Part shown: positions 5,654 to 54,023 of the stretch, one piece after another
How positions within the stretch are numbered: the first letter of the stretch is position 1
Layout of the letters: each line of letters opens with the position of its first letter
Assembly (NCBI GenBank): GCA_964627015.1
Contig: CAZVGY010000002.1
Location: forward strand, 36,554 to 100,553
Direction: 5' to 3'
DNA: 64,000 bases
DNA from: an uncultured Desulfobacteraceae bacterium
GTDB lineage: Bacteria > Desulfobacterota > DSM-4660 > Desulfatiglandales > Desulfatiglandaceae
Position numbers and translations under genes: made by a program
Notes under the pieces: generated by a model
Told to the model about the DNA's origin: nothing
What the model saw: only the letters and a program-made list of their open reading frames with translations
Databases searched by the model: none

Positions 5654-5875
5654 AGTAAATCCTCCTGCGTTTAGTTTTTTTGTCTGCCTGACTCAAGCCT
5701 CATGCCTTCAGATGTGAGATAATAAAAATAGTGAATAATTAATCTCATCAATTTTAAAAAGCTGTTTAAAATCATTATTAAAAAACTACATTCTACTAAG
5801 AGTCGCCCACTGGGTCAACCCCTTCGCACCTCGAACCTCAACCTACTCACAAACAGGGCTTGGACTGCTTCAGCC

Positions 5876-6886: not shown

Positions 6887-6927
6887 TCAGTTCACTCCTG
6901 CCATGATTTCTTGGAGTTATATAAAGG

Positions 6928-8786: not shown

Positions 8787-8829
8787 TTATTTTCAACCTG
8801 TGAGTTATTACAAAAGCCTTACAGGAGAA

Positions 8830-10608: not shown

Positions 10609-12110
10609 CAATCCTCCTTCATTTTTTTTATATCTATTTTCCACGTATCCAAGGTGGTACCCAGCGTCCTGTCCATTGCTGCCAATTCGTTCAGGTAGCT
10701 GATGGTGGCATCAAGTTCATTGTTCCGGGCATTTAGAAGGTCATTATGAAATGTTACAAGCTGAAAATTGGATGATCGACCCGTTCTTAATTTCTCTCTT
10801 TCAAGCTCCAGTTTTCTTTCTGTAAACTCTCTCGCCCGTTGGGCGGATCCAACCTGGCTCAATTTCATTTCAACATCCCGAACAGCATCCATTACCTCTG
10901 TTTCGATACTGTCAGTCAGCTCATCCAGGGCCAGTCTGGCTTTTTTTAGGTGGTTTTCCGCTCTTATGACTCGTTCTTCACGGGTCAGGTCTCCGAAAGG
11001 TATGTTAAGGCTCACTCCCGCATTCAAATCACTCATGTCGGCGTTGCCTGTCGCCTTCCAGGAGTGCCGCCGTTCTGGGGTGTCGGTGGCGTCTACGCCG
11101 TAAGCCCCGTCCGGGGATACGTCCCAGAGGTAGTTGTTTTCGGCTGCGATGAGATTTAGTTCCGCTACTTTGAGGTTGAGAAGTGCCTGGAGGTAGTCGG
11201 GCCTTGCATTCAGGGCAACTGCCATGTACTTCACCGGGTCGGGTTTGATAGATTTTATTTTCATGGTTCCACTAGGGATGATCATTGTATTTTTATCAAT
11301 GTCAAGTATCCTCAGCAAAGAATAGCGTGCCGCCTCCATGGCGTTTCTGGCCCGGGTGAGGCCGAATTCCTTATCTGCCAAATCCGCCTGAGCCTGAACA
11401 ATTTCCACCTGTGCCATTCTCCCTGCCCCTATCAGGGCCCTGTTTACTTCAAGCAGGTCTTTAGCCCTTTCTAGGGATTTTGTGCTGATTTCAAGCTGTT
11501 TTCCAGCTTGAAGAAAGTTGCGGTAGGCATTGATGGCGGAGGTTACCGTGTCCATGATTGTAGATTTCAAAAAGAGGATATTGATCTGTTTATTTATCCT
11601 TGCCATTTCGAGCGGTATGGTTTTTACGGTTATACCCTCACCCTTCAATAATGGCTGATTAAATGCGAGATTCCAAGAGGAACTGTAGGTATCATCTGGA
11701 GAATTACCGTCGATTTCGCGAGCAGTAGAGTTATCCCACACAAAAGAAAGCTCCGCACCGGTTTGGAGTTTTTGAGTGACCGTGGCGAAGATTTCGGCCC
11801 GGTTAGCATATGACCTGTTTTGACCGTCGCCTACGGATACATGTTTTACTGAAGGGTTTATGGCGAGATCCGGGTGAAATTCATCTTCATCAACTCTCAG
11901 ATCAAACTTCTGGACAACGCCGTCCAGGCAAGCGCTTTTGATGCTTCTATTATGCCTCAAGGCAAGGAAGACACAGTCTGTCAGGGTCATTTCCTTAGCC
12001 TGTCCTGTCTTGGATTTGTTTTTTTCATAAGAGTGCGCAGGTACAAAAATCCAAAAGGGAACCGAAAAAATTAAAAGCAGGCAGGAAATTTTCTTGAGAG
12101 AGAAACGCAT
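10608..12110 (-). CDS. TolC-family outer membrane efflux protein
   Basis: Two-repeat OEP architecture. ATG 12110 gives the signal peptide MRFSLKKISCLLLIFSVPFWIFVPAHS. The track ORF extends to TTG 12179, and the true start is uncertain. Confidence 0.8.
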   Translation of the reverse strand: MRFSLKKISCLLLIFSVPFWIFVPAHSYEKNKSKTGQAKEMTLTDCVFLALRHNRSIKSACLDGVVQKFDLRVDEDEFHPDLAINPSVKHVSVGDGQNRSYANRAEIFATVTQKLQTGAELSFVWDNSTAREIDGNSPDDTYSSSWNLAFNQPLLKGEGITVKTIPLEMARINKQINILFLKSTIMDTVTSAINAYRNFLQAGKQLEISTKSLERAKDLLEVNRALIGAGRMAQVEIVQAQADLADKEFGLTRARNAMEAARYSLLRILDIDKNTMIIPSGTMKIKSIKPDPVKYMAVALNARPDYLQALLNLKVAELNLIAAENNYLWDVSPDGAYGVDATDTPERRHSWKATGNADMSDLNAGVSLNIPFGDLTREERVIRAENHLKKARLALDELTDSIETEVMDAVRDVEMKLSQVGSAQRAREFTERKLELEREKLRTGRSSNFQLVTFHNDLLNARNNELDATISYLNELAAMDRTLGTTLDTWKIDIKKMKED

Positions 12111-41490: not shown

Positions 41491-42126
41491 CTAATTTAAA
41501 AGGTTGCTTGGTCCAGCGACTACGTCATTTTGATAAATAGGGTTCTGGATAGAGAGCACATTCGGCGCTTCGGCCTTTATTAGGATATGGATCCCTATCG
41601 GTGCATAAATATAACCGAAGAGACGATTGTCAGGTCCATATATCGCTCCGAGAAATGGTGACAGTTTATTCGGATCCGTTTCCAGTTCAACGGCAATGGA
41701 CCTCAATTTTTCTTTCAAGTCAACTTCTAGGTAGCCGCTACTTATCTCCTTACTTTTTTCTTCTGCGGGACCTTTTAGAATAAATTTCCCGAGCCCAAGA
41801 CTCTCGTCAACTTTTACCCAGTCTTTGGGAACGATGCTCAGACCGTCATCCCGCGGATCAAACAGCAGGGCCATAAAAAGGCCTTCCGATCCTCCGGAAT
41901 ATACTTGGTAGTGTTCGCAATTGTCAATGAGATCTCTAAGGCTCATGTTGGATTTAGCATCAGGCAAAAAACCTATTTGACCGTAATTAGCTAAATAATT
42001 GCAGCCGCTGAGTGCAGGCAGAAGAAGAATACATAGATAAATAGTTACCCATTTGGCCCGCCATAATAAATTTTTCTGGCAGACAACATTTTTTTCTATC
42101 ACCCCTGACACATTTTTTCCTCTCAT
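41491..42126 (-). CDS. Hypothetical lipoprotein
   Basis: Lipobox LPALSGC. I recognise no family, and the start codon is uncertain. Confidence 0.5.
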   Translation of the reverse strand: MRGKNVSGVIEKNVVCQKNLLWRAKWVTIYLCILLLPALSGCNYLANYGQIGFLPDAKSNMSLRDLIDNCEHYQVYSGGSEGLFMALLFDPRDDGLSIVPKDWVKVDESLGLGKFILKGPAEEKSKEISSGYLEVDLKEKLRSIAVELETDPNKLSPFLGAIYGPDNRLFGYIYAPIGIHILIKAEAPNVLSIQNPIYQNDVVAGPSNLLN

Positions 42127-42210: not shown

Positions 42211-44631
42211 TTATTTTTTGTTTTTCAGTATTCGAGTGGTTTCAGCAATCTCTTCTGCTGAAACGGAACGCCGGAGTTTTTCTAATCGCAACATGACATC
42301 TGCAAATCTGACACCCTCTGCCGCGCTTATCCATTCGAGTTGGAGACGCTCAGCTCGAATCCCAAGTTTAATCATTTTTTTATGAATTTTTGCGACTCTT
42401 TTTTCTGTCCAGTGGTTTGCGTCTATATAATGACAGTCTCCTATGTGGCAGCCGCTGACCAATATAATCGGTGCTCCCTTAAGAAACCCGTCCCATATGA
42501 ACTTTTCATCCACCCGTCCGGAACACATGGTTCTGATAAGTCGGATGTTAGGAGGATACTGGAGCCTGGAGACACCTGCGTAATCGGCACCGGCGTATGA
42601 ACACCAGTTACAGGCAAAGGCGAGAATTTTTTGCTCTGGTTCTTCCTCTAGTAAGGCATTAACCTGGTTCATTATCTGGGCGTCTGTGAAATGGTTCATT
42701 ATTATGGCGTCAAAGGGGCACTCTGCAGCGCATGTGCCGCACCCGGCACATGCCGCTGTATTAACCACGGCCGGAAGTTTCTTTTTGACATCCACTGTTA
42801 TTGCGTTATATGGACATACTTCCGCACATTTGCCGCAGAATCTGCAATTTTCCGGTATAACCTGGGATGTAATAGGTTCAGAGGTGATCTCTCCACTGTG
42901 CATAAGACGGATAGCACGGGCAGCAGCAGCAGAAGCCTGGGTGACGCTCTCTTTTATATCTTTTGGAGATTCAGCACATCCAGCATAAAAAATGCCACGG
43001 GTTGCAGCATCTACAGGTTGGAGTTTGGGGTGGGCTTCCAGAAAGAAACCATCTGAAGAAAGCTGTAATCCCAGCATCTCCTGTAGCTTTTGTGTGCCTG
43101 GTGCGGGTTTGATCCCCAGGGCCAGTACAAGCATATCCAGTCTGTGTATTTCAAGTTTGCCTGTGGCGGTATTTTCGACTGCAACACGTAAGCTGCCGTC
43201 AGTTTCCTGCTCAACCGTACCAGGCAGGCCCCTGATATAATGCGCCCCAACCCTCCGACTTCTTTTATAAAGGTCTTCAAATCCCTTGCCGAACGCCCTG
43301 ATGTCGATGTAAAAGACCTTCACATCCATGTGAGGATAATGCTCCTTGAGCATCAATGTGCCTTTTATCGTGTTCATGCAGCATATATTGGAGCAGTAAT
43401 CACTACCTTTTCTTGCAGACCGTGATCCAACGCACTGTACGAAGCCAATTGAGCTTGGCCTTTTTCTATCAGTGGGACGGATCAATTCTCCATTGGTTGG
43501 CCCTCCGGCATTAATAAGGCGTTCAAATTCAAGGCTGGTCACGACATTTTCAAAACGCGTGTATCCGTATTCATCGAGTTCAGTAGGATCATAGACCTCA
43601 AGGCCTGTAGCTACGATAATGGACCCGACTTTTTCAGTGATTTCCTCATCGGACATATGAAAATTTATGCAGCCCTTGTCACATGCGTCTATACACTTAG
43701 CGCATACAGCCGGATTATGACCCAGGCATTCATTTATATTTATCACATAAGCAGAAGGGACGGCCTGCGGAAATGGCGTAAAAACAGCTCTACGAGATGA
43801 GAGACCGAGGTTGAATTCATCTGGACGGACAACAGGGCATACTTTGGCGCACTCACCGCATGCGGTGCACTCCTTTTCATCAATATAGCGGGCTTTTTTG
43901 AGTATTCCTACCTCAAAGTTACCAACGTATCCTTTTACACTTTCTATTTCGCTCAAGGTGTAAAGTTTGATCCGGGGATGTCGACCGACATCCGTCATCT
44001 TCGGACCGAGTATTCAGATGGAACAGTCCATGGTAGGAAATGTTTTGTCGAGCTGGGCCATTGTTCCGCCTATCGAAGGCCTCTTCTCTACCAACACTAC
44101 ATCAAAACCATTATCTGCCAGATCCAGAGCAGCCTGTATGCCTGCAATTCCACCGCCTATAACTAAGGCTCTCTTGGTTAGGGGAAGCTTTTCCTCCTGT
44201 AAGGGCTCAAGCAGCTTTACCCGGGATATGGCCATTTTTACCAGATCTGTGGCTTTTTTTGTTGCGGCGCTTGCTTCATTCATGTGCACCCAGCTGCATT
44301 GCTCACGAAGATTGGCCATCTCAAGGAGATAAGGGTTCAGACCTGCTGACTGAAGCATCTGACGGAAGGTAGGTTCATGAAGCCTTGGGGAACAGGAAGC
44401 AACCACCACACGGTCCAGGGAGTATTCTTCTATATCATCTTTTATTTGTTGCTGTCCAGGTTCGGAACATGCATAGACTATATCCTTTGATATAATAACA
44501 TCCTCAATTTGCGCAGCAAATTCAGCTACTTCGTTGCAGTTGACGCTTTGGGCAATGTTGAGGCCGCAATGACATACGTAGACTCCAATTCTGGGGCGCT
44601 CTGGCGGGTAATCAGAATTGTTTGCGAGCAC
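42211..44631 (-). CDS. hdrA: Heterodisulfide reductase subunit A fused to MvhD-like domain; selenocysteine-containing (TGA 44014..44016)
   Basis: Track ORFs 42211..43998 and 44014..44787 share one frame. Read-through gives [30 protein letters not shown], which puts the TGA at the Cys/Sec position known for HdrA. Other features are FAD motif VIGGGIAGIQAALDLA, several 4Fe-4S motifs, and the C-terminal MvhD signature FACNWCSYAGADYAG. The likely start is GTG 44631 (GGAGGG upstream), giving MLANNSDYPPERPRIGVYVCHCG. Confidence 0.88.
43977..43992 (-). promoter_or_regulatory. SECIS hairpin for the hdrA UGA
   Basis: On the mRNA strand the sequence is GAUGUC-GGUC-GACAUC, a 6-bp stem with a GGUC apical loop as in the E. 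coli fdhF SECIS. It starts 21 nt after the UGA. Confidence 0.6.
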
Positions 44632-44675
44632 TTTTCCCTCCGTGTTTCTGTTGATCGCTACTACGTGTTTAAAAT

Positions 44676-46256
44676 CTATTCCCAGCGTATGGTTTTCGTT
44701 ACAACACTGGTGAGATCCATCATATCCATCCTTAGTTCTTCTCCAAAAAACGGATCCTCCATTGCACAGCGCAGATGGATCTGGCATTTTGGACAGGCTG
44801 TTACAAGGAGGTCACTCCCGGTATCTTTGGCCTGTCGAATGCGTTTCATTTGAAGAGCTTTGCTAAAAGAATCACAACCCGTCCACGCACAATTACCACA
44901 ACAGATGGCACTGGCAGCGCTATCCTGCATTTCAGAAAAATCCTGGAGGTTTAACCGGGAAATCAGTTTTCTTGGCAGGTTGGGACGATTTTCAAGCCTG
45001 CTTAATCTGCAGGGATCCTGGAAGGTCAATCTTCGATTCATTTTTTTAAATCCTACAGCCCCTTTATCAATCTCTCTCTCAAGTACATCGAAGATGTGTG
45101 TAACCTTGAAATTAACCTGAACGCCATTTTCCGGGTAGTCGTGGGCAAATGTTCTGTAGCATTCGGGACAGGCAGTTATAAGTTCGCGTATTCCACGTTT
45201 ATGAATCGCCTCTACGTTTAAATTTGCCAGCTTAAGGTAATTTTCCTTATCCCCTGACCAAAGAAGATCATGTCCACAGCAACGTTCGTCTTCAAGTAGT
45301 GCAGGATGGATGTCGAAAAAGTTCAGAAGCCTAAGCCCGTCTACTAATATGCTCCTGGTATGGATCCCCAGGTGCTTTCTAAAAAAAATGTCAAAATATG
45401 GCGCACAGCCGCCGAAAAAAAGGGTCTCACTTTGATTATCGGTTTGTATGTCTTCTGGTAGCCATTCCCAGTGCCTGACTTTCAGGTCGGGAGGGGTCAT
45501 GGTCCGCATCAGCGAATGGAAAAACCCACCGTGAGCCTCAAAGCCTTCTGAACCTGTAATTTTAAGGATATGACGCATGTCTTTTATAAATTCTGGAAAA
45601 TTGACGGCTGAAGGGCACCTGTCATAACAGAGCCCGCATGTGAGACAAGACCAGATGTCTTCACGTACAGAAGAAGAATCCATATTTTTTGTAACTATTG
45701 CATTTGCTATAGCCCTTGGGGAAAAAGGCTTGCCAGCCAGAGTCAAAGGGCATGCTGATGAACATTTTCCGCAGTCCTGGCATGCGTAGACGTCATACTT
45801 GGCTACCACAGAATCAATAAGGCCTTGTATCTCGGTTTCTGATAACCTCTTAGGTTGGGGAGCTATGGGGCTCTTACCTATAGGCTCTATCTCCTCTATA
45901 AATTCTTCAAGAAATTTGAGAAGGCCTTTTGAGTCTTCCGGCATAAAAGTTGCCAGTCGGAGCCGGTTTTTGCCGAGACCGAGAAGGTCAAGTATGCCCC
46001 TTGTGTCTTCAACATTTTCTTCGGCTGTAGATGTCCCCGCACCGTAACGGCAGGTACCCGCTTCGCACCCCACCAGTGCTACTCCATCGGCGCCCATTTC
46101 AAAAGGTTTAAATAAGAGGGCCTTACTTATTCTTCCTGTACAGGGGATTCGGACCATTTTTATTTCAGGTGGGATCCTGGATAAACTGTCCTGAAGCTCC
46201 TGATAGGCAGCATGAGGTCCCCAGTTACAGAGAAAAAGGATAATATTTATGTCCAC
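44676..46256 (-). CDS. MvhD-like + HdrC-like (2x4Fe-4S) + HdrB-like (CCG domains) fusion protein
   Basis: N-terminal LFLCNWGPHAAY...RIPCTGR...VALVGC, ferredoxin motifs CQDCGKCSSACP and CLTCGLCYDRCP, and two CCG-type Cys-rich regions (ERCCGHD..., ICCGNCAWTGC). GTG start. Confidence 0.8.
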   Translation of the reverse strand: MDINIILFLCNWGPHAAYQELQDSLSRIPPEIKMVRIPCTGRISKALLFKPFEMGADGVALVGCEAGTCRYGAGTSTAEENVEDTRGILDLLGLGKNRLRLATFMPEDSKGLLKFLEEFIEEIEPIGKSPIAPQPKRLSETEIQGLIDSVVAKYDVYACQDCGKCSSACPLTLAGKPFSPRAIANAIVTKNMDSSSVREDIWSCLTCGLCYDRCPSAVNFPEFIKDMRHILKITGSEGFEAHGGFFHSLMRTMTPPDLKVRHWEWLPEDIQTDNQSETLFFGGCAPYFDIFFRKHLGIHTRSILVDGLRLLNFFDIHPALLEDERCCGHDLLWSGDKENYLKLANLNVEAIHKRGIRELITACPECYRTFAHDYPENGVQVNFKVTHIFDVLEREIDKGAVGFKKMNRRLTFQDPCRLSRLENRPNLPRKLISRLNLQDFSEMQDSAASAICCGNCAWTGCDSFSKALQMKRIRQAKDTGSDLLVTACPKCQIHLRCAMEDPFFGEELRMDMMDLTSVVTKTIRWE

Positions 46257-46343
46257 TTTATCACCAATTAATAAATTCTGATCAGTACTTTTATTCCGTA
46301 AGAGTAAGTTACAGTTATATTCTTTTCCAACTGCCTTGAATTA

Positions 46344-49300
46344 TCAACCGCCGAGTACTTCTTCAAGAATACGCTCCAGATATGCCTGGTCACGATAGGG
46401 ACTGTCAGCCGCGTTTGACGGGCACACTGAAATACAATTGCCGCAACCCTTACAAAGGGCCTCATCCACTACAGCGTACCATCCTCCTACTGAATTTTTG
46501 CGTAACGTGATAGCTTGATAGTGGCAGACTTGTATACAGCGTCCGCAGCCCCTGCATCGATTCTCGTCTATAACAACCGTATATCCTTTGCTCTGCCTAG
46601 GCCCTCGCGGCATTATCGCAGCCGCAAGTACCGCTGCAGCGGCCCCTTTTTTTCTTTCGGAAACCTTGATTCCAGAGGGATTAGCTACAAAAAGTCCGGA
46701 GATCGGGGTCGCCCCGGGATATAAAAAAGGAATGCCGGCTACTCCATGTTTTTGCATGCTGGAAGCGATGAAGCTGGTAGGCAGGCCCTCCTGAGATATA
46801 TAGGGGATAAGCCGCCTACTTTTTTCACCCAGTATGACACTCCCTACCTGCAGGGCTTGAGAAAAGCCGTTTGATTCGACAAATACCTGGAAATCTCCCA
46901 GGGTTCCACTTATTCCCCTGACACTGGTATCTTCGAAATAATAGATATTTGAATGAGACAAATCCCCGGGTGTCTTTTTGCCTTTAGAGCCGAATTTTAA
47001 AACTTCGATTCCGGCCTGAGCCAGAGTTAGTGCGCTTACTGATGCTGCTTCGGAATCTCCTATTACAGCTGTGGTAAAGTTATATGTCCTCGCCGGCGCG
47101 GGCAGCGCCCTCAATCTTCTGGCCCTTCGGATTGATCTTTCTATTAACCCTTCAAAGCGGGACACGACACAGGCGGGGTCATGCCTCAGGTACTGAAGCA
47201 CTTCCCCTCTGAGATTGCAGGTCTCAACCATAGAGCGGCTTACACCTGTCCCAGTAAAAAGTGCGGTTTTCAGTCGGCTTCTTTGATCTGTGCATGCACT
47301 GCAAACAAAGTCAAGGGGGCAGCACACGCAGGATGCGAGGACAACACGTGTAATACCCTTTTCACGTACGGTCCTGACAATGCCAGCGGAGCCTTCGGGG
47401 ATGCATGCCGAAGGAATAGTTTCGGCATGGACAATATCTCCATTCTCCAGCAGTTGTTCAACGTAATTATCCAGCTCTTTGAGCCACCCCATTGAGTCAT
47501 TGCAGCGGCATATAAAGACCCCAATACGAATTTCAGGCGATAACTCAGGGTCAGGCGGTGAAAATGAGACTCCTCGGCCTTTGGGAAGTTGTGACGTCCC
47601 CCCTAGCAAAATCATCGACTTCGCAGCTGCTGAAAAACCACGAATGACCATTCCATAGACATCAGGTTTTGCCACTTTGGGCCCATATGCCCTGATCACG
47701 TCCTCACCCTTGATCTGGGGGGCTGCATCAGGGTCGGCTATTATTACCACTCCTGCGTGTTCTTTGCTTTCCAGCGGCTGTTCAGAATGGTTTATCGCTC
47801 CTATTGGCTGACAAGCTTCAACGCATAAGTTACACTCGGAGCAGATGCCGCATTGGAGGCATCGTTCAGCCTCCAGCAGGACTTGAGTCTGGCTGAGCCC
47901 CAACGCGACCTCAGAAAAATTGTCTATTCTAGAACTGGGCTGTCTTTCGGGCATTGTTGGTCGGGCAAGGGAAGGAATGTCGCCGGGAATCGGCGGATAA
48001 TCCTTGTCTTCAGGCCTCGAAGGTAGTGTTGAGAATATATCTTCTCCACAAATATATTCATGGATAGAAGCTGCAGCGGCTCTTCCCGTTGCCATGGCTT
48101 CGACTACGGACGAAGGCCCGGAAACAGCATCCCCGGCCGCGTAAACACCAGAGATTCCTGTATAGAATTCTTTATTTACTTTGATAAAGCCCCGGGGAGT
48201 GAGGCTTATTCTGTCTCTATGTCCCTCTTTTTTTGAAAATCCTGCTTGGCCTATAGCCACTATAGCCCGTTCAAACTTTAGTTCAAAGGATTCACTCCCG
48301 GGGATTAACACAGGCCACGGTATTCCGTTGCTATCGGGTTCCCCCGGTTTGGTGGGCTTACAGCGCAGGTGGTCCAGCTTCCCGTTTTGTCCTGAAAAGG
48401 ATATTACTTGTGTCCGGTCTTTGACGGTAATCCCTTCCTCTCTAGCCCCTCTGATTTCCTCTTTGTCCGCCGGAATAAGGTCTTCGGGAAACCAGGACAA
48501 AATCGTAACGCTGGCACCCAGACGCTTGAGAACTCGAGCCAGGTCGAATGCCGCGTTGCCGTCGCCGATGACAGCTACGTTTTGTTTTATTTTCAAAGGT
48601 TTTTCGTGGTAAAGGCTGGTAAGGAAACTCAGACAGCCCTCTACACCCTCTAAATCTTCTCCCTGGATGCCCATCTTACGGTCTGTCCAAATACCGACAG
48701 TTAGCAGGACAGCATCAAATTCCTTTTTCAGTCTTTCAAGGTCCTCCATTATATTTATTTTACGAGAGGTTATGAATTGGACGCCTATCACTCTAATATA
48801 ATCGAGTTCATGGTCAAGGATTTCCCTGGGGAGACGGTGCGGGCCTATGCCGTAACGGAGCAACCCTCCAGTCATGGCTTCTTTCTCAAAAACCGTTACC
48901 ATATATCCAAGACGAGCCAGGTCTCCTGCTGCGGCGAGCCCGGCGGGCCCTGAACCTATTACAGCAATTTTTTCCGTCTTTTGAGGTGTTTTTACCTCTT
49001 TGGAATTGTGAGGATGGCTGAGCTCAAAGTCTGCCAGAAAACGCTTGATATCTTTAATAGCAATGGCTTCATCAAGCTCTCCCCGTCTGCATACCTCTTC
49101 ACAAGGATGTGTGCATACTCTGCCGCAGATACCGGGCAAAATGTTGTCACGGCGGACTGTTTCAAGAGCCTCATGAAAACGACCAGCTCGAGTCAGAGCC
49201 ACATAAGCTTGCACATTAACTCCGAGGGGACAATTAGACTGGCATGGGGGTGTACGCCTTTTATCTATAACAGGTCGGCCTGGCAGGCTCCTTCTATCAT

Positions 49301-49703
49301 AAAACAGGATAGGTTTGCCTCCATCCGGTGTCAGGACCGGGCAGACTTCTAGGCAGCGGCCACAAAGGATACATCGATTCAGATCTATAAATGTAGGCAT
49401 CCCTTGCACCCTAGCTCTGAAACCCTGGGGCGTATGCCTTATAGATGTGACATCAGCGGGCATTATGCAACGGATAAGAGGGTTGTGAAATATTCTTAGT
49501 AGTCCAGACTTATGCGCGAAGTTAAAGTGGATACCAGAGGGTAGTTTCCATTGTTCTCTGGAAAGTTTTTGATTCAGGTCAGGATCCCGATCAACCAGTG
49601 TGACAGGGATCCCCAGTTCACCCAGCTTGTTGGTTGCAGCAATTCCAGCGGGAGTGGCACCGATTACGATCACTTTGTGCAGGCGGTCTTTAGAGCGTTT
49701 CAT
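46344..49703 (-). CDS. Giant HdrL-like flavo-iron-sulfur protein (GltD-like NAD(P)H module + HdrA-like modules + ferredoxin domains)
   Basis: 1119 aa with dinucleotide motifs VIGATPAG, VIGSGPAGLAAAGDLA and VIGDGNAAFDLA. The GltD-like region is CPLGVNVQAY...ICGRVCTHPCEEVC. The HdrA N-domain-like region is RIGVFICRCNDSMGW...VVLASCVCC. The terminal region is CRGCGRCIQVC / CKGCGNCISVCP. The ATG lies 2 nt after the korG stop. Confidence 0.8.
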   Translation of the reverse strand: MKRSKDRLHKVIVIGATPAGIAATNKLGELGIPVTLVDRDPDLNQKLSREQWKLPSGIHFNFAHKSGLLRIFHNPLIRCIMPADVTSIRHTPQGFRARVQGMPTFIDLNRCILCGRCLEVCPVLTPDGGKPILFYDRRSLPGRPVIDKRRTPPCQSNCPLGVNVQAYVALTRAGRFHEALETVRRDNILPGICGRVCTHPCEEVCRRGELDEAIAIKDIKRFLADFELSHPHNSKEVKTPQKTEKIAVIGSGPAGLAAAGDLARLGYMVTVFEKEAMTGGLLRYGIGPHRLPREILDHELDYIRVIGVQFITSRKINIMEDLERLKKEFDAVLLTVGIWTDRKMGIQGEDLEGVEGCLSFLTSLYHEKPLKIKQNVAVIGDGNAAFDLARVLKRLGASVTILSWFPEDLIPADKEEIRGAREEGITVKDRTQVISFSGQNGKLDHLRCKPTKPGEPDSNGIPWPVLIPGSESFELKFERAIVAIGQAGFSKKEGHRDRISLTPRGFIKVNKEFYTGISGVYAAGDAVSGPSSVVEAMATGRAAAASIHEYICGEDIFSTLPSRPEDKDYPPIPGDIPSLARPTMPERQPSSRIDNFSEVALGLSQTQVLLEAERCLQCGICSECNLCVEACQPIGAINHSEQPLESKEHAGVVIIADPDAAPQIKGEDVIRAYGPKVAKPDVYGMVIRGFSAAAKSMILLGGTSQLPKGRGVSFSPPDPELSPEIRIGVFICRCNDSMGWLKELDNYVEQLLENGDIVHAETIPSACIPEGSAGIVRTVREKGITRVVLASCVCCPLDFVCSACTDQRSRLKTALFTGTGVSRSMVETCNLRGEVLQYLRHDPACVVSRFEGLIERSIRRARRLRALPAPARTYNFTTAVIGDSEAASVSALTLAQAGIEVLKFGSKGKKTPGDLSHSNIYYFEDTSVRGISGTLGDFQVFVESNGFSQALQVGSVILGEKSRRLIPYISQEGLPTSFIASSMQKHGVAGIPFLYPGATPISGLFVANPSGIKVSERKKGAAAAVLAAAIMPRGPRQSKGYTVVIDENRCRGCGRCIQVCHYQAITLRKNSVGGWYAVVDEALCKGCGNCISVCPSNAADSPYRDQAYLERILEEVLGG

Positions 49704-49705
49704 TC

Positions 49706-50302
49706 TCAGGCTCCTGTCATACCTTTGGCTTTCTTGTTCCGCCCTTTTAGTACCGCCAGTCCATAGTCGTAGCCCTTGTCAAATGCCGTTATATTCATTT
49801 TTTCGGTGCCTTTGGGTACCGATGCGGCCACGGAATCACGTAATGCTTTAACCGATACAGCTCCGGTGGCCGAGGTGAAAAAGCCTAGCATAATGATATT
49901 GGCCATCATCGTCCTTCCCAACTCCTCAGCCATCCGCGTCGAGGGGATGGAGTAAAAATCAGTGTCTATTCCTGCAGGTTTGACCAGATCCTGATCGATC
50001 AGTAGCACACCATCTCTTTTTAACTGACCTATGAACTTATCAAAACCTGCCTGGGACATGCATACAAGTATATCTGGGTATCTAACATTGGGATAATGAA
50101 TCTGCCTGTCGGAGATTATTACTTGTGCACTGCAAGCTCCACCCCGTGCCTCAGGACCGTAGGCTTGGACAAGGGTGCTTTGCCTGTGGTCGCCCAGGAC
50201 GACAGCTTTTCCCAGGATCCGCCCTGCCAGCACTATTCCCTGCCCCCCGAACCCGGTTAAAATAATTTCTTGCCTTACAGTTTCTTCTTTTTGCTCAGTC
50301 AT
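49706..50302 (-). CDS. korG: 2-oxoacid:ferredoxin oxidoreductase gamma subunit
   Basis: ILTGFGGQGIVLAGRILG opening typical of POR/KOR gamma subunits. The kor (2-oxoglutarate) assignment rests on the delta-alpha-beta-gamma gene order, as in OorDABC, and substrate is unproven. Confidence 0.8.
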   Translation of the reverse strand: MTEQKEETVRQEIILTGFGGQGIVLAGRILGKAVVLGDHRQSTLVQAYGPEARGGACSAQVIISDRQIHYPNVRYPDILVCMSQAGFDKFIGQLKRDGVLLIDQDLVKPAGIDTDFYSIPSTRMAEELGRTMMANIIMLGFFTSATGAVSVKALRDSVAASVPKGTEKMNITAFDKGYDYGLAVLKGRNKKAKGMTGA

Positions 50303-50347
50303 GTATCCCCTGCAAAAATATACGTTATGGGGTTTTGAGGTTTTAAG

Positions 50348-51223
50348 CTAGGCCTTAGCAGCCTTGTATTCGTTTAGCTGTTCTTCGTGCCGGTAAATTT
50401 TATCATACGTGTCTATCCATGTAGGCCGGTCAATGTCGACAAATTTTCCGAGAATTATCGCCCTTTCGAAGTCGATATCGAGCTCCAGTGGATGGGCTTC
50501 GTTTTTTATTATGGTTTTTTCCTGGTAGATTTTAAGAGTGTCGATCGGTTTTTCTCTATTACGGCGCCCATAGTTAACAGGACAAGGAGCCAGGACTTCA
50601 ACGAAGGAAAATCCCCTCTTCACTATAGCCTCTTCAATAGATTCGGTGAGATCACGAGCGTGTAAAATGGTCCACCTTGCTACATAGGTGGCACCTGATG
50701 CGTATGCCAGCAGAGGGAGGTTAAAAGGGGATTCAGGATTTCCTGAAGGAGTGGTAGTCGTCCTGGCATTATAGGGAGTAGTGGCAGCAACTTGTCCGCC
50801 AGTCATGCCATAGTTAAAGTTATTGACACAAACGATTGTAAGGTCTACGTTCCTGCGTGCTGCATGTATGAAGTGGTTTCCACCAATAGCAAAGAGATCT
50901 CCATCCCCACTAAAAACGATTACATTCAATTCTGGATTTGCAAGCTTCATCCCTGTCGCGAATGGGATGGCCCTTCCGTGCGTAGTATGATAGGAATCCA
51001 GGTTTACGTATCCTGCACCCCGTCCGGTACATCCGATCCCTGAAACCATTACGGTTTTTTTCAAATCAATTCCGCTTTCTTTCATGGCGATCAGACATGA
51101 AGAAAATGCTGTGCCGATGCCACAACCCGGACACCATATGTGCGGGATACGATCAGTTCGCAGGAGACCGTCAAGAGGGTGGATCTGCTGTTTGTCGGTT
51201 TGCTTCATGACTTCCCTGATCAT
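50348..51223 (-). CDS. korB: 2-oxoacid:ferredoxin oxidoreductase beta subunit (TPP-binding)
   Basis: WCPGCG, the GIGC motif, the GDGD...N TPP motif (SGDGDLFAIGGNH), and NNFNYGMTGGQ. Confidence 0.9.
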   Translation of the reverse strand: MIREVMKQTDKQQIHPLDGLLRTDRIPHIWCPGCGIGTAFSSCLIAMKESGIDLKKTVMVSGIGCTGRGAGYVNLDSYHTTHGRAIPFATGMKLANPELNVIVFSGDGDLFAIGGNHFIHAARRNVDLTIVCVNNFNYGMTGGQVAATTPYNARTTTTPSGNPESPFNLPLLAYASGATYVARWTILHARDLTESIEEAIVKRGFSFVEVLAPCPVNYGRRNREKPIDTLKIYQEKTIIKNEAHPLELDIDFERAIILGKFVDIDRPTWIDTYDKIYRHEEQLNEYKAAKA

Positions 51224-52407
51224 CCAAAAGCATTTTTAAGGGTTTCGATTACACGCTCCGGTGGGATGATGGCGCCTCCAGAGTGTCCTACTAGAATAGA
51301 TGGAACCTTGCTGCCTGTGCATCTTTCAACTTCTTTATGTATCTGACCCAGGTTTATTTCTACAGTCACAAAGCCCTTTACTCTATCGGCAAGTGCTTTG
51401 ATCTCATCTTCAGGAAAGGGCCAAACCGTAATCAACCTTAGCAGACCGGCCTTTATACCTTGCTCTCGGGCCTCATCCACCGCGGCTAGACTTGTTCTGG
51501 AAGACACACCGTAGGAAACGATCACGATTTCTGCATCATCCAGTCTGTAGTGTTCCGTCTGTAGGATATGAGGAAGATTTTGCCGGATTTTTTGTACCAG
51601 CCTGGTCATCATCTGTTCCTGGGCTTCTACAGTCATAACCGGGTAGCCCTTTTCATCATGGGTAAGTCCGGTGACATGTATATTATACCCCTCACCGGCA
51701 ATGGCCATGGGCGCAACTCCATTTGGTCCTGGCTGAAAAGGTTTGAACCGGTCTCTTCTACCTTTTGGTTTAGGTCTTGATACCGTGTGGATAGCTTTTG
51801 AATCCGGTATGATAACTCTTTCACTGAGGTGCCCGATCATCTCATCGGTCATTATCATTACTGGCACGCGATAGGTCTCGCTGAGGTTGAAGGCCTCGAT
51901 CGTTTGGTAAAAAATTTCCTGAGGAGATGCTGGTGCAAGGGCTATGATTTCATAGTCCCCGTGTGATCCCCATTTGGCCTGCATTATGTCGCCTTGCGCT
52001 CCTTGGGTGGGAAGGCCCGTAGAAGGGCCGGCTCTTTGAACGTTTACAATTACACAAGGAGTCTCGGTGCAGATGGCCAGGCCTATATTTTCCATCATGA
52101 GGCTGAACCCTGGTCCTGAGGTTGCCGTCATGCTTTTGAGTCCGGCACACGAGGCACCGATTACCGAGGCGATTGCACCGATTTCGTCCTCCATCTGTAT
52201 AAAAGTTCCGCCTACTTCAGGCAGGTGGGCGGATATATGCTCAGCCACCTCCGTTGCAGGCGTTATTGGGTATCCGCCGAAGAATAGGCATCCTGCAGCG
52301 AGGGCGCCTTCGGCACAGGCCACGTCCCCTGTCATAAAATGTTCACCAGTCAGAACTGCTGGTCTCATGCTGTGTCTTTCTCCGAATACCAGTTCATGCC
52401 GGACCAT
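51220..52407 (-). CDS. korA: 2-oxoacid:ferredoxin oxidoreductase alpha subunit
   Basis: FMTGDVACAEGALAAGCLFFGGYPITPATE and TATSGPGFSLM. An alternative start is ATG 52368 (GGAGAA upstream). Confidence 0.9.
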   Translation of the reverse strand: MVRHELVFGERHSMRPAVLTGEHFMTGDVACAEGALAAGCLFFGGYPITPATEVAEHISAHLPEVGGTFIQMEDEIGAIASVIGASCAGLKSMTATSGPGFSLMMENIGLAICTETPCVIVNVQRAGPSTGLPTQGAQGDIMQAKWGSHGDYEIIALAPASPQEIFYQTIEAFNLSETYRVPVMIMTDEMIGHLSERVIIPDSKAIHTVSRPKPKGRRDRFKPFQPGPNGVAPMAIAGEGYNIHVTGLTHDEKGYPVMTVEAQEQMMTRLVQKIRQNLPHILQTEHYRLDDAEIVIVSYGVSSRTSLAAVDEAREQGIKAGLLRLITVWPFPEDEIKALADRVKGFVTVEINLGQIHKEVERCTGSKVPSILVGHSGGAIIPPERVIETLKNAFG

Positions 52408-52481
52408 TCCTTACTGGAAGGGCCAGGGCGCTTGAATTCATTTGTTTTTAGTATTCTTTGTTAAAAAGTGTGTGATAGGTG

Positions 52482-52766
52482 TTAGCCTGGAGAAGCCTCC
52501 ACCGAGTAAATGGCAAATTCCGGGCATAGAATTTCACAGTAATGGCAGTTGACGCAGTCAGCAGGATTTTTGACGATGGGGGGATGATAACCCTTTTGAT
52601 TGAAACGGGTAGAAAATTCAAGGACCCCTTTAGGGCAAAAATCTATACAATAGCCGCATCCTTTGCACCGATCCTCAATAATATGTACCTCGCCGAGGGA
52701 AACAGCGATTTGATCCGCATCAAGTGGAATCCGCCAGAATTTCATATGGCTTTCCTGTTTATCCAT
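52482..52766 (-). CDS. korD: 2-oxoacid:ferredoxin oxidoreductase delta subunit (2x[4Fe-4S] ferredoxin)
   Basis: CKGCGYCIDFCP and CVNCHYCEILCP. It is the first gene of the minus-strand cluster. Confidence 0.85.
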   Translation of the reverse strand: MDKQESHMKFWRIPLDADQIAVSLGEVHIIEDRCKGCGYCIDFCPKGVLEFSTRFNQKGYHPPIVKNPADCVNCHYCEILCPEFAIYSVEASPG

Positions 52767-53078
52767 CCGAAATTGTTTGTCTGTTTGAAGAATAGGGATA
52801 TACTTTTACCTTTATGCATGTCAAGTGTAAAGTTGTAGTTAGGTTTGCTAGTTAAGGAGATGGTCTTCAAAAATTCCTGGGGGTATGTCCAAAATAATAG
52901 GGTCCGATATAGCCAGGTGGGCGGCTTTTGCTTATTTAAGGAAGTCTCTCTTCCATAAAAGAAACAGATCCCTTCTTTTTTATTAGTCGATTTGCCTGAA
53001 CCCCTCTTTTTTTTAAGGCGGTTTCTAAGAAGGCGCCTGGATAGAACCCTTACCTGGAATTTAAAAGTGTTTATTCAC

Positions 53079-53216
53079 CTCAGCAAAAGGGCCTTCTGTT
53101 CGCCTTGGTGGCACCGGGTTTTAATTTCCCATATAGGACTTTCGGCTTTAAAAAGAGAGTTATGAACAGTCGTCAAGGTTTGTTTTGAGGATTAGCTCCT
53201 AGCTTCCAGTCCCCTC
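53079..53216 (+). repeat. Y 3'-end remnant plus X repeat copy C
   Basis: cctcagcaaaagggccttctgttcgccttggtggcaccgggttttaatttcccatataggactttcggctttaaaaagagagttatgaacagtcgtcaaggtttgttttgaggattagctcctagcttccagtcccctc aligns with the last ~35 nt of Y copy B (its 3' arm) plus X copy B. Confidence 0.7.
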
Positions 53217-53381
53217 TCTAATATGTTTATACTTTATCAGAGAGAAGGGCCTTGCTTGAGGGTTGGGTGGATCCAAAGAGAAGTGAAGTTTTGGTTCTTG
53301 ATTACTTGGGGTTTTTTATCTATACTGAACAGCTCTAAACTTAAAAACCTGTTGAACTTCGACCAGTTATGGGGGTGAAGA

Positions 53382-54023
53382 TTGTTTATAACCTTTGAGG
53401 GTATAGAAGGGTGCGGTAAATCCAGTCAAGCGAAGCGGCTTGCCGATCGGCTGAAACAGATTGGGGTACCTCTTCTCCTGACACTCGAACCAGGGGGGAC
53501 CAAGATAGGGGCAGAAATAAGGAGGCTTCTCCTGGATTCCAAGAATGATGACCTTTCTCCTCTGGCAGAACTTCTGCTGTACGAGGCAGACAGGGCACAG
53601 CATGTGAGTGAAGTCATAGCCCCTGCTCTGGAAAGAGGTAAGTGGGTGCTCTGCGACCGTTTTTTTGACGCAACCACGGTTTACCAGGGATATGGGCGTG
53701 GTCTCGATCTTGGATTTGTCCAGGAGCTTAATGGAAGAGCCTCCTGTGGTATCAGGCCTGACATCACCTTCCTGATAGATTGTCCTGTTCATGTAGGGAT
53801 CAAAAGGGCTTTGGAGAGGAATGAATCGCTTTTGGAAGATGGCCAGGATAGATTCGAAAGAGAAAGGGTGGTTTTTCACGAGGCCGTTCGGCGAGGATAT
53901 CTTGCACTCGCCGTCGAGGAAAGAAGGCGATTTGTTATAACGGACGGCACGCTGACAGAAGAAGATGTAGAAGAACAAATATTTAAACATCTCGCACCAT
54001 ACCTTCCCGTAATGGCGAAATAA
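53382..54023 (+). CDS. tmk: Thymidylate kinase
   Basis: P-loop FITFEGIEGCGKSSQ, DR(F/Y) motif LCDRFFDAT, and a lid region. TTG start. Confidence 0.93.
   Translation: MFITFEGIEGCGKSSQAKRLADRLKQIGVPLLLTLEPGGTKIGAEIRRLLLDSKNDDLSPLAELLLYEADRAQHVSEVIAPALERGKWVLCDRFFDATTVYQGYGRGLDLGFVQELNGRASCGIRPDITFLIDCPVHVGIKRALERNESLLEDGQDRFERERVVFHEAVRRGYLALAVEERRRFVITDGTLTEEDVEEQIFKHLAPYLPVMAK

What the first reader, a model, noticed from the sequence alone, without database searches (positions are those of the whole stretch)
42211..52766. Contiguous korDABG - hdrL - mvhD/hdrCB - hdrA/mvhD cluster with no hydrogenase or formate dehydrogenase: candidate ferredoxin/NAD(P)H-linked electron-bifurcating complex
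Seven same-strand genes are packed tightly. The korA/korB genes overlap by 4 nt, the korG stop and hdrL ATG are 2 nt apart, the hdrCB stop overlaps the hdrA region, and the remaining gaps are under 90 nt. The cluster combines:
- A low-potential ferredoxin generator (the 2-oxoacid:Fd oxidoreductase).
- A GltD-like NAD(P)H module inside the 1119-aa HdrL-like protein.
- Two MvhD-like electron-transfer domains fused to Hdr subunits rather than to a hydrogenase.
- An HdrB-type CCG disulfide-reducing site.
- A Sec-containing bifurcating HdrA.

This reads as a self-contained module linking 2-oxoacid oxidation (or reductive carboxylation), pyridine nucleotides and an unknown disulfide such as DsrC or a CoM-S-S-CoB analogue. 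The physical coupling of Kor to Hdr genes is the unusual point.
Basis: inference. Interest (0 to 1): 0.6.

Follow-up and report, generated by a model that had tools for sequence, protein, structure and literature searches.

The report
Conserved Kor-HdrL-Hdr redox operon
Seven tightly packed genes join a CO2-releasing/fixing 2-oxoacid enzyme to a selenium-containing, electron-splitting heterodisulfide-reductase module. The same block recurs gene for gene in more than 140 sulfate-reducer-type genomes, so it is almost certainly one machine, but this cluster type has been noted in print before and nobody has tested it.

Summary
On the minus strand lie korD, korA, korB, korG, a 1119-aa HdrL, an MvhD-HdrC-HdrB fusion and a Sec-containing HdrA-MvhD. 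Junctions range from a 4-nt overlap to an 87-nt gap. No hydrogenase or formate dehydrogenase is nearby.

The adjacency is not chance. In 143 non-redundant loci holding an HdrL orthologue, korG (136/136), MvhD-HdrCB (137/137) and hdrA (122/123) are colinear wherever the contig reaches. No flanking gene family is shared by more than 8 of 93 loci. Every Fe-S cysteine, the HdrA selenocysteine codon (121/122) and the korG/hdrL coupling are conserved.

The best reading is one soluble complex. A methanogen-type bifurcating HdrA would link a pyridine-nucleotide site (HdrL), a CCG disulfide-reducing site, and a Kor enzyme on the low-potential branch. This is inference; no transcript or enzyme data could be obtained.

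New detail: HdrL here replaces the NADPH-binding "YRR" of NfnB-type domains with an invariant "SWF". A sister cluster type keeps YRR.

The cluster type was noted in Syntrophobacter fumaroxidans ("HdrAL/POR"). An analogous Kor/Hdr-Flx linkage was proposed for tubeworm symbionts. This is therefore a new member of a known, uncharacterised kind.

The parts
52797..52824 (-). Promoter-like site: perfect -35 TTGACA (52824-52819), a 16-nt spacer and TATATC, about 30 nt upstream of the korD ATG. It lies in the 615-nt spacer shared with the divergent tmk gene.
   Evidence: Read directly from the sequence. The consensus scan did not list it because position 6 of the -10 hexamer is not T. Inference only.
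52482..52766 (-). korD: delta (ferredoxin-like) subunit with 2x[4Fe-4S].
   Evidence: Pfam Fer4/Fer4_7. NCBIfam OGOR_delta and OorD hits fall below cut-off. All 8 Cys are invariant in 51 orthologues.
51220..52407 (-). korA: alpha subunit of a 2-oxoacid:acceptor oxidoreductase.
   Evidence: POR_N + PFOR_II. NF006412 scores 570 bits against a cut-off of 411. Nearest solved chains are 1YD7 (a 2-keto acid:ferredoxin oxidoreductase alpha subunit), then 8YS5 and 6N2N, with PFOR far behind.
50348..51223 (-). korB: TPP- and [4Fe-4S]-binding beta subunit. It overlaps korA by 4 nt.
   Evidence: TPP_enzyme_C. The GDG...NN motif is visible in the translation. Cys31, 34, 65 and 214 are invariant in 75 orthologues. 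The nearest solved chain is the 8YS5_C 2-oxoglutarate:Fd oxidoreductase beta.
49706..50302 (-). korG: gamma subunit. Its stop lies 2 nt before the hdrL ATG.
   Evidence: Pfam POR. The korG/hdrL junction is -4, -1 or +2 nt in 78 of 89 loci.
46344..49703 (-). hdrL: 1119-aa mosaic. Residues 10-127 resemble the start of the HdrA flavin domain. Residues 150-553 form an NfnB/GltD-type FAD + dinucleotide module with two [4Fe-4S]. Residues 726-980 resemble the HdrA N-terminal domain plus a degenerate Rossmann fold. Residues 992-1098 resemble the HdrA C-terminal 2x[4Fe-4S] ferredoxin domain.
   Evidence: AlphaFold model with pLDDT 85.7 and pTM 0.81. Foldseek TM 0.77-0.78 to NfnB chains 5JCA_L and 4YLF_B. 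Cys conservation. SWF in place of YRR.
44676..46256 (-). Fusion of MvhD ([2Fe-2S]), HdrC-like (2x[4Fe-4S]) and HdrB-like (two CCG domains). This is the putative disulfide-reducing site.
   Evidence: Pfam FlpD, Fer4_8 and CCG x2. NCBIfam TfrB, HdrC and VhuD hits fall below cut-off. PDB hits are MvhD and HdrC chains. Of the Cys, 23 of 25 are invariant or nearly so (95% or more) in 83 orthologues; all ten CCG-motif Cys are (nine at 100%, one at 95%).
42211..44631 (-). Methanogen-type HdrA with a C-terminal MvhD domain (HdrA2 architecture). Selenocysteine codon TGA at 44014-44016 (residue 206).
   Evidence: NF040770 HdrA2 scores 1200.8 bits against a cut-off of 1100. 5ODC_A scores 777 bits over residues 11-661, with U206 aligned to Cys197. 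TGA is present in 121 of 122 orthologues.
43969..44007 (-). SECIS-like hairpin with a GGUC apical loop. It begins 6 nt after the UGA; the apical stem begins 20 nt after it.
   Evidence: The MFE fold gives this hairpin at -16.5 kcal/mol, but the energy is not better than shuffles (z = -0.12). selB is present in the genome.

Best explanation
The seven genes form one operon encoding a soluble flavo-iron-sulfur complex. A four-subunit Kor-type 2-oxoacid:ferredoxin oxidoreductase is electrically coupled to a heterodisulfide-reductase-type electron-bifurcating core.

Proposed mechanism (inferred):
1. A pyridine nucleotide, probably NADH rather than NADPH, reduces the NfnB-type FAD of HdrL.
2. Electrons pass through Fe-S clusters and the two MvhD [2Fe-2S] domains to the FAD of the Sec-containing HdrA.
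3. At that FAD the electron pair is split.
4. The high-potential electron goes through the HdrC-like clusters to the HdrB-type CCG site. There it reduces a disulfide or trisulfide, with DsrC the obvious candidate.
5. The low-potential electron goes through the HdrA/HdrL ferredoxin domains to KorD and the TPP site of Kor.

Run this way, the machine would drive reductive carboxylation of an acyl-CoA (most likely succinyl-CoA to 2-oxoglutarate) or ferredoxin reduction. Run in reverse, it would couple 2-oxoacid oxidation to NAD+ reduction.

Shown: the gene content, the cofactor motifs and the strict co-inheritance of the seven genes. Inferred: physical association, wiring, substrates and direction.
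For: 1. Co-inheritance. In 143 non-redundant loci from species-level genomes, the colinear counts, wherever the contig reaches, are korG 136/136, MvhD-HdrCB 137/137, hdrA 122/123, korB 124/127, korA 115/117 and korD 108/111. All seven genes are present in 97 loci (first pass).
2. Flank control. No flanking gene family is shared by more than 8 of 93 loci. The seven-gene block is therefore the unit that is inherited and moved.
3. Translational coupling. The korG-hdrL junction is -4 nt in 53, -1 in 11 and +2 in 14 of 89 loci. The median extrapolated gap is 2 nt over 136 loci, and median gaps at the other junctions are 4-53 nt.
4. A second, distant HdrL subfamily (34% identity, separate MvhD and HdrCB) is also always preceded by korDABG, in 8 of 8 loci.
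5. HdrA is a full-length homologue of the structurally defined bifurcating HdrA (5ODC_A, 777 bits). Its Sec aligns with Cys197.
6. Cofactor ligands are essentially invariant in 51-89 orthologues. All proposed Fe-S ligands in KorD, KorB, HdrA and the HdrC-like domain are invariant. One CCG Cys is at 95% and one HdrL N-domain Cys at 87%. This includes both complete CCG motifs.
7. HdrL has an NfnB-type fold, with TM 0.77-0.78.
8. A genuine DsrC with both C-terminal Cys is encoded in the genome.
9. Published analogy. A four-subunit OGOR lies between hdrA and hdrBC, with flx genes, in the rTCA cluster of tubeworm symbionts. The cluster is co-expressed and was proposed to feed electrons directly to OGOR (PMC6315080; PMC11636981).
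Against: - There is no transcript, protein or enzyme evidence for this cluster type.
- The only proteomic statement found says the S. fumaroxidans 'HdrAL/POR' proteins were not detected during growth on propionate (PMC5947623).
- The genome has other OFOR sets (five further POR_N alpha genes plus two IOR-type), so Kor does not obviously need a private electron supply.
- The 2-oxoacid substrate is not established. The OGOR-specific NCBIfam models fall below cut-off.
- The NADPH-binding YRR is missing from HdrL, so even the pyridine-nucleotide donor is uncertain.
- CCG domains also occur in enzymes that do not reduce disulfides.
- Gene order cannot prove hard-wiring as opposed to coupling through free ferredoxin.
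Confidence: 0.5

Rival explanations
1. The proteins are co-regulated but not physically joined. Kor is an ordinary ferredoxin-reducing (or ferredoxin-consuming) enzyme, and the HdrL/HdrCB/HdrA proteins form a separate ferredoxin-dependent complex. Free ferredoxin carries electrons between the two, and the operon only ensures matched expression.
For: KorD is of ordinary length (94 aa) and has the ordinary 2x[4Fe-4S] pattern. Canonical Mvh-Hdr and Flx-Hdr complexes use free ferredoxin (established knowledge). The genome carries several other OFORs that presumably use ferredoxin.
Against: The korG/hdrL translational coupling is the tightest and most conserved junction in the block. The linkage is kept in two HdrL subfamilies that are only 34% identical. 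Nothing else is co-inherited with the block.
Confidence: 0.25
2. It is a downhill, non-bifurcating oxidoreductase. Electrons from 2-oxoacid oxidation (about -500 mV) simply flow through HdrA to the CCG site and/or to NAD+. This would make it a 2-oxoacid:DsrC (or NAD+) oxidoreductase with no energetic coupling.
For: All parts needed for such a chain are present, as is DsrC. All carriers identified are sulfate-reducer-type Desulfobacterota.
Against: HdrA keeps every feature of the bifurcating enzyme, including the Sec/Cys197 position. Three distinct redox termini (pyridine nucleotide, 2-oxoacid and CCG site) are conserved together. A linear chain would not need all three.
Confidence: 0.15
3. The adjacency is fortuitous. 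Unrelated kor and hdr transcription units happen to be neighbours in this genome.
For: Weak promoter-like matches (9 of 12) fall in the korB-korG and hdrL-hdrCB spacers.
Against: The census of 143 loci and the flank control argue against it. Promoter-like and terminator-like counts do not exceed shuffles, and no terminator-like site lies in any intergenic gap.
Confidence: 0.03

Closest known systems
'HdrAL/POR' gene cluster of Syntrophobacter fumaroxidans (Sfum_0012-0018; Sedano-Nunez et al. 2018, PMC5947623)
   Same: It is a seven-gene cluster described as a heterodisulfide-reductase-like HdrA/HdrL set associated with a 2-oxoacid (called pyruvate):ferredoxin oxidoreductase. Five Syntrophobacter MAGs carry the same block as this window (L066, L089, L153, L157, L194).
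   Different: The cluster was only named in passing, and its proteins were not detected in the proteome. I could not fetch the S. fumaroxidans locus, so sequence-level identity with this cluster is inferred from the description and from the congeners. By sequence, the Kor here is closer to 2-oxoglutarate enzymes than to pyruvate enzymes.
korABCD interspersed with flxABCD-hdrABC in the rTCA gene cluster of tubeworm symbionts and Thioflavicoccus mobilis (PMC6315080; PMC11636981)
   Same: A four-subunit OGOR is genetically embedded in an HdrA/HdrBC set together with an NADH-oxidising module. The cluster is co-expressed and was proposed to pass bifurcated low-potential electrons directly to OGOR.
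   Different: The NADH module there is FlxABCD, not an HdrL fusion. The gene order differs (kor lies between hdrA and hdrBC). The hosts are gammaproteobacterial sulfur oxidisers, and the context is an rTCA cluster with ATP-citrate lyase. No such context exists here.
MvhAGD-HdrABC and Fdh/Mvh-Hdr-Fmd supercomplexes of methanogens (PDB 5ODC, 7BKB, 8RVU)
   Same: HdrA is a full-length homologue (777 bits), with Sec at the Cys197 position. MvhD, HdrC-like and HdrB-like CCG modules are all present. The supercomplex sets the precedent for wiring the low-potential branch straight into a CO2-reducing enzyme (from my own knowledge of the literature).
   Different: There is no hydrogenase or formate dehydrogenase donor here. 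HdrB and HdrC are fused and are of the TfrB/HdrD type, below the CoB-CoM equivalog cut-offs. The partner on the low-potential side would be a TPP enzyme, not formylmethanofuran dehydrogenase.
HdrA2B2C2 of Methanosarcina acetivorans (NCBIfam NF040770)
   Same: The HdrA-MvhD fusion architecture matches, and the window protein passes the model's cut-off (1200.8 against 1100).
   Different: That enzyme uses F420H2 and CoM-S-S-CoB in an archaeon. No F420 or CoM/CoB context is evident here.
HdrL1-3/MvhD of Desulfobacterium autotrophicum and HdrABC/HdrL of S. fumaroxidans (PMC2702500, PMC5947623)
   Same: These are HdrA-like proteins carrying a GltD/NfnB-type insertion and paired with MvhD.
   Different: Classical HdrL proteins are about 1480-1500 aa with a complete HdrA. 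They share 34-38% identity with this one and are not next to kor. This holds for the paralogues in this genome too. The Kor-linked HdrL is shorter, with degenerate HdrA flavin motifs.
NfnAB, NfnABC and StnABC transhydrogenases (PDB 4YLF, 5JCA, 9N5U, 9BOV, 8OH5)
   Same: HdrL residues 150-553 have the NfnB fold, with the two-[4Fe-4S] domain and both dinucleotide folds.
   Different: The YRR triplet found in all five solved chains is SWF here. That triplet sits at what I take, from general knowledge of NADP-binding Rossmann folds, to be the 2'-phosphate-binding position. There is also no NfnA-type partner.

Membership tests
2-oxoacid:ferredoxin oxidoreductase (OFOR), four-subunit delta-alpha-beta-gamma type | Alpha (POR_N + domain II), beta (TPP-binding, GDG...NN, [4Fe-4S] Cys), gamma (POR) and delta (2x[4Fe-4S]) subunits | tested here: met
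   All Pfam domains score above cut-off, and NF006412 scores 570 against 411. The GDG...NN motif is in the translation. The beta and delta Cys are invariant.
2-oxoglutarate-specific OFOR (Kor/Oor/OGOR) | Score above the curated cut-off of an OGOR equivalog, or known 2-oxoglutarate-binding residues | tested here: inconclusive
   NF007206 alpha scores 398 against 579, NF007207 beta 240 against 364, and OGOR_delta 67 against 125. The nearest named solved enzymes are OGORs (8YS5, 6N2N), with PFOR far behind. Substrate-binding residues were not checked because the reference paper was not available.
Bifurcating HdrA (methanogen type, HdrA2 architecture) | Full-length HdrA with an FAD GxGxxG motif, N-terminal, inserted and C-terminal Fe-S domains, the Cys197-position ligand and a fused MvhD | tested here: met
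   NF040770 scores 1200.8 against 1100. 5ODC_A scores 777 bits over residues 11-661, with U206 aligned to Cys197. All 35 Cys/Sec positions are invariant in 70 orthologues.
HdrB/HdrC (CoB-CoM heterodisulfide reductase catalytic subunits) | Two CCG domains (C...CCG...CxxC) plus a 2x[4Fe-4S] HdrC domain; membership in the CoB-CoM equivalogs | tested here: inconclusive
   Both CCG motifs and the HdrC Cys are complete and conserved. However, the HdrC equivalogs (44 against 160, 35 against 350) and TfrB (131 against 385) are below cut-off. It is a CCG-type thiol/disulfide site of unknown substrate, not a demonstrated CoB-CoM reductase.
NfnB/GltD-type NADPH-binding flavoprotein module | Fer4_20 two-cluster domain, FAD and NAD(P)H Rossmann folds, and the Arg-Arg pair after beta-2 that binds the 2'-phosphate of NADPH | tested here: not met
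   The fold and both GxGxxG/A motifs are present. However, the YRR of 9N5U, 9BOV, 8OH5, 4YLF and 5JCA is SWF in the window. It is SWF, TWF or AWF in all 121 orthologues that the motif search matched, out of 143 loci. The sister cluster type keeps YRR.
Flavin-based electron-bifurcating complex | Demonstrated coupled reduction of a low-potential and a high-potential acceptor by one mid-potential donor | not testable with these tools
   This needs enzyme assays. Only the parts list is shown here.
Single operon | One transcript spanning korD to hdrA | not testable with these tools
Indirect support comes from the short or overlapping junctions, the absence of terminator-like sites in the gaps and the conserved junctions.
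Selenoprotein | In-frame UGA at a conserved Cys position, a downstream SECIS hairpin, and Sec machinery in the genome | tested here: met
   TGA is present in 121 of 122 orthologues at the Cys197 position. There is a GGUC-loop hairpin, though its energy is not better than shuffles. selB scores 383 bits against 242.

The most novel reading that the evidence does not exclude
Kor and the Hdr proteins form one hard-wired super-assembly. It would be built on a pseudo-dimeric HdrA/HdrL core, each half with its own MvhD domain. Electrons from a non-NADPH donor would be bifurcated at the HdrA flavin, and possibly also at the NfnB-type flavin of HdrL. They would then be injected through KorD directly into a TPP enzyme.

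In this reading, reductive carboxylation of succinyl-CoA proceeds without free ferredoxin and is paid for by DsrC or another disulfide. It would be the bacterial counterpart of the methanogen Hdr-Fmd CO2-fixing supercomplex, and the first TPP enzyme found inside a bifurcating machine.
Probability: 0.28. Interest if true: 0.8.

Novelty: new member of a known kind. Interest (0 to 1): 0.5.

Why it matters
If the seven proteins work as one complex, anaerobes have a way to drive or harvest the very low-potential 2-oxoacid/acyl-CoA + CO2 couple directly. They could do so from pyridine nucleotides and a thiol/disulfide couple, without going through the ferredoxin pool.

That would change energy and carbon budgets for sulfate reducers, syntrophs and hydrocarbon degraders. 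These organisms sit at the thermodynamic limit.

It would also add a new class of flavin-based electron bifurcation. The block occurs in about 6% of sampled genomes of the phylum and in about two-thirds of the window's own family. Cultured carriers exist (Desulforhabdus sp. TSK, Desulfatitalea alkaliphila M08but and, per the literature, S. fumaroxidans), so the question is directly testable.

Tried and rejected
- Pereira et al. 2011 could not be read, and the supplements of PMC5947623 are not held.
- The S. fumaroxidans locus was not retrieved, even with a Syntrophobacter query. Equivalence with 'HdrAL/POR' therefore rests on the paper's wording and on five congeneric MAGs.
- A search for conserved flanking genes (a dedicated thiol carrier, succinyl-CoA synthetase, glutamate synthase and the like) found none. 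The neighbouring carboxyltransferase and the 211-aa lipoprotein-like ORF are not part of the unit.
- Class II benzoyl-CoA reductase (Bam) reading: rejected. No BamB-type tungsten enzyme is nearby, and the cluster occurs in many lineages not known as aromatic degraders.
- A hydrogenase- or formate-linked Hdr: rejected. No such genes were found among the large ORFs scanned, which cover most of the window.
- Spread to other phyla: not established. The few loci labelled Methanothrix, Bacteroidales, Acidobacteriota or Leptospirales are mostly short MAG contigs (2.7-4 kb; the Leptospirales one is 16.6 kb) with Desulfobacterota-like sequence.
- Kor substrate residues: the MmOGOR structural paper was not in the library.
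- The SECIS fold energy is not better than shuffles. Only the motif and its position support the hairpin.

Full report
**Observation**

The window carries seven co-directional minus-strand genes between 42211 and 52766.

Pfam and NCBIfam assign the genes as follows:
- korD (52482-52766): 2x[4Fe-4S].
- korA (51220-52407): POR_N + PFOR_II; NF006412 scores 570 bits against a cut-off of 411.
- korB (50348-51223): TPP_enzyme_C.
- korG (49706-50302): POR.
- HdrL-like protein, 1119 aa (46344-49703): a GltD/NfnB-type core plus HdrA-like segments.
- MvhD-HdrC-HdrB fusion, 526 aa (44676-46256): FlpD, 2x[4Fe-4S] and two CCG domains.
- HdrA-MvhD protein, 806 aa (42211-44631): read through one TGA at 44014-44016. 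It passes the NCBIfam HdrA2 cut-off at 1200.8 against 1100.

The junctions are:
- korD-korA: 74-nt gap.
- korA/korB: 4-nt overlap.
- korB-korG: 45-nt gap.
- korG-hdrL: 2-nt gap.
- hdrL-hdrCB: 87-nt gap.
- hdrCB-hdrA: 44-nt gap.

The GTG at 44631, preceded by GGAGGG, fits where the orthologues and the M. wolfeii HdrA alignment begin.

The true upstream neighbour is the divergent tmk gene (53382-54023, plus strand). The minus-strand ORF at 53367-53990 is its shadow. The rest of the window that was scanned holds housekeeping and other unrelated genes, with no hydrogenase or formate dehydrogenase. Consensus scans show no terminator-like site in any intergenic gap, and counts do not exceed shuffles.

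**Is the adjacency more than chance?**

I collected loci that encode orthologues of this HdrL. Sources were species-level genomes and the window's relatives.

After removing duplicates, 143 loci remain, with HdrL 53-71% identical. Wherever the contig reaches the expected place, the partner genes are present and colinear:

| Gene | Colinear / reachable |
|---|---|
| korG | 136/136 |
| MvhD-HdrCB | 137/137 |
| hdrA | 122/123 |
| korB | 124/127 |
| korA | 115/117 |
| korD | 108/111 |

All seven genes are present in 97 loci. The few exceptions are rearranged or interrupted copies (L079, L092, L161).

As a control, I clustered all ORFs within 8 kb on either side of 93 loci. No flanking family is shared by more than 8 loci. 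The seven-gene block, and nothing else, is therefore what is inherited together.

The korG/hdrL junction is an ATGA-type overlap or a gap of at most 3 nt in most loci. The extrapolated median gap is 2 nt over 136 loci.

A second, distant HdrL subfamily tells the same story. It is about 34% identical and has MvhD and HdrCB as separate genes. It occurs in a genome of the window's own family (L039/L121) and in seven other loci. It is also always preceded by korDABG and, where the contig reaches, followed by MvhD, HdrCB and a Sec-HdrA.

By contrast, the classical HdrL paralogues of about 1480 aa are not next to kor. This includes three in this genome.

Prevalence:
- 24 of 401 evenly sampled genomes of the phylum (21 of 255 genera).
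- 15-16 of 24 genomes of the window's own family.

Record titles place the carriers in Desulfobacterales, Desulfatiglandales, Syntrophobacterales, Desulfobulbales, Desulfarculales and relatives. The handful of loci with labels from other phyla are mostly short MAG contigs, and I do not regard cross-phylum spread as shown.

**The parts**

*HdrA.* It aligns with the structurally characterised bifurcating HdrA of Methanothermococcus wolfeii over its whole core (5ODC_A, 777 bits, residues 11-661). Its C-terminus aligns with MvhD (5ODC_D). The in-frame TGA falls exactly on Cys197 of that enzyme. The codon is TGA in 121 of 122 orthologues.

A GGUC-loop hairpin follows the TGA, although its energy is unremarkable. 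selB is present in the genome. This is the only canonical HdrA in the genome; other HdrA-like genes are at most 41% identical.

*MvhD-HdrCB fusion.* It keeps four Cys in the MvhD part, eight in the HdrC part and all ten Cys of two complete CCG motifs. These are invariant or nearly so in 83 orthologues. It scores below the cut-offs of the CoB-CoM and TfrB equivalogs, so its substrate is unknown. A bona fide DsrC with both C-terminal Cys is encoded elsewhere in the genome.

*Kor.* It has every OFOR hallmark. Among solved structures with a named substrate, it is closest to 2-oxoglutarate enzymes (8YS5, 6N2N) and far from PFOR and oxalate oxidoreductase. The OGOR-specific NCBIfam models are nevertheless not passed, so 2-oxoglutarate is likely but unproven. 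The genome has other OFOR sets (five further POR_N alpha genes plus two IOR-type).

*HdrL.* It is a mosaic:

| HdrL residues | Resemble |
|---|---|
| 10-127 | Start of the HdrA flavin domain; dinucleotide motif degenerate (GATPAG) |
| 150-553 | NfnB-type module |
| 726-980 | HdrA N-terminal domain (Cys ligands kept) plus a degenerate Rossmann motif (GDSEAA) |
| 992-1098 | HdrA C-terminal 2x[4Fe-4S] domain |

An AlphaFold model from 64 sequences is confident (pLDDT 85.7, pTM 0.81). Its NfnB-like part superposes on NfnB chains at TM 0.77-0.78.

One new detail concerns the dinucleotide pocket. All five best solved NfnB-type chains read YRR immediately after the second Rossmann beta-2 strand. From general knowledge of NADP-binding folds, this is the 2'-phosphate-binding position. 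The window reads SWF there. Every orthologue that the motif search matched reads SWF, TWF or AWF (121 of 143 loci). The sister cluster type keeps YRR. "NAD(P)H-linked" is therefore reasonable by fold, but NADPH is unlikely for this subtype and the donor is unresolved.

**Most likely mechanism (inference)**

There are three conserved redox termini:
- a dinucleotide site (HdrL);
- a CCG thiol/disulfide site;
- a TPP 2-oxoacid site at about -500 mV.

All three surround a complete bifurcation-type HdrA. This matches the logic of Mvh-Hdr: a mid-potential donor, a high-potential disulfide and a low-potential acceptor.

There are two MvhD domains for two HdrA-type N-terminal domains, one in HdrA and one in HdrL. 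This suggests a pseudo-dimeric HdrA/HdrL core.

The low-potential branch would end at KorD/Kor rather than at free ferredoxin. The precedent is the methanogen Hdr-Fmd supercomplex (from my own knowledge).

The direction is open. The complex could perform reductive carboxylation of succinyl-CoA, or 2-oxoacid oxidation feeding NAD+ and a disulfide.

I put 0.5 on this coupled-complex reading. The rivals are:
- 0.25 on co-regulated but ferredoxin-mediated modules;
- 0.15 on a non-bifurcating downhill chain;
- 0.03 on chance adjacency.

**What is known**

- Strittmatter et al. 2009 defined HdrL (PMC2702500).
- Sedano-Nunez et al. 2018 list "HdrAL/POR (Sfum_0012-0018)" in S. fumaroxidans as an Hdr-like set associated with a pyruvate:ferredoxin oxidoreductase. 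Its proteins were not detected in their proteomes (PMC5947623). No other paper in the library cites those loci.
- Rubin-Blum et al. 2019 proposed that korABCD interspersed with flxABCD-hdrABC forms a complex shuttling electrons directly to OGOR (PMC6315080). Their systems were tubeworm symbionts and T. mobilis.
- A 2024 study found that cluster co-expressed (PMC11636981).

Both the idea and this cluster type are therefore in print, but no biochemistry exists.

Earlier notes of this scan describe the same block in other genomes and reach similar readings. They are not independent evidence. One of them led me to the tubeworm literature, which I then read myself.

**Verdict**

This is a real, strongly conserved and self-contained seven-gene module. 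It is a new member of a known but uncharacterised kind.

It is of moderate interest. In this window it is not surprising, but the class remains an attractive and directly testable candidate for a new bifurcating enzyme wired to CO2 chemistry.

Noticed in passing
L039 (= L121) 831-11806; also L122-L128: A sister 'type 2' cluster occurs in a genome of the window's own family. It has korDABG, a 1127-aa HdrL (34% identical, NADPH-type YRR kept, N-terminal GGTPQG), a separate 161-aa MvhD, a separate 388-aa HdrCB and a Sec-HdrA (68% identical). The MvhD-HdrCB fusion and the SWF pocket are therefore specific to the window's subtype.
   Followed up: partly
window 53367-53990 (-) and 53382-54023 (+): The 207-aa minus-strand ORF just upstream of korD has no family match. 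It is a shadow of tmk (dTMP kinase, TIGR00041, 170 bits) on the plus strand. The tmk-holB unit is divergent from the kor operon across a 615-nt spacer that also holds a repeat noted by another reader (53079-53216).
   Followed up: yes
G000 C2:121188-123161, C33:12656-14401, C41:11730-13637 (outside the window): The genome has three further HdrL-type genes in open frames of about 1480-1500 aa, 34-39% identical to this one. Two carry an in-frame TGA. None is next to kor. The C2 copy lies only about 35 kb from this cluster.
   Followed up: partly
window 47289-47333 (HdrL residues 791-805): HdrL has four extra invariant Cys in ASCVCCPLDFVCSAC (C794, C795, C801, C804), plus C767. The homologous HdrA N-terminal domain lacks them. 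This may be an additional metal or Fe-S site.
   Followed up: no
window 46218-46229 (HdrCB residues 10-13): The MvhD domain fused to HdrCB reads CNWG where the HdrA-fused MvhD reads CNWC. It keeps four invariant Cys against five.
   Followed up: no
L004, L123, L127, L188: Contigs binned as Methanothrix, Bacteroidales, Acidobacteriota and Leptospirales carry this Desulfobacterota-type cluster at 55-63% identity. Three are 2.7-4 kb long and one is 16.6 kb. This is probably mis-binning rather than cross-phylum transfer.
   Followed up: no
window 41491-42126 (-): A 211-aa ORF with no family match, apparently lipoprotein-like, starts 84 nt after the hdrA stop on the same strand, with no terminator-like hairpin between them. 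It is not conserved next to the cluster in other genomes.
   Followed up: partly
L092 14929-17330; L079 13346-15317: Two variant loci were seen. In L092, hdrA is replaced by a second GltD-like gene and a Kor-alpha-like gene. In L079, korDAB is missing and about 2 kb is inserted between hdrL and hdrCB.
   Followed up: no
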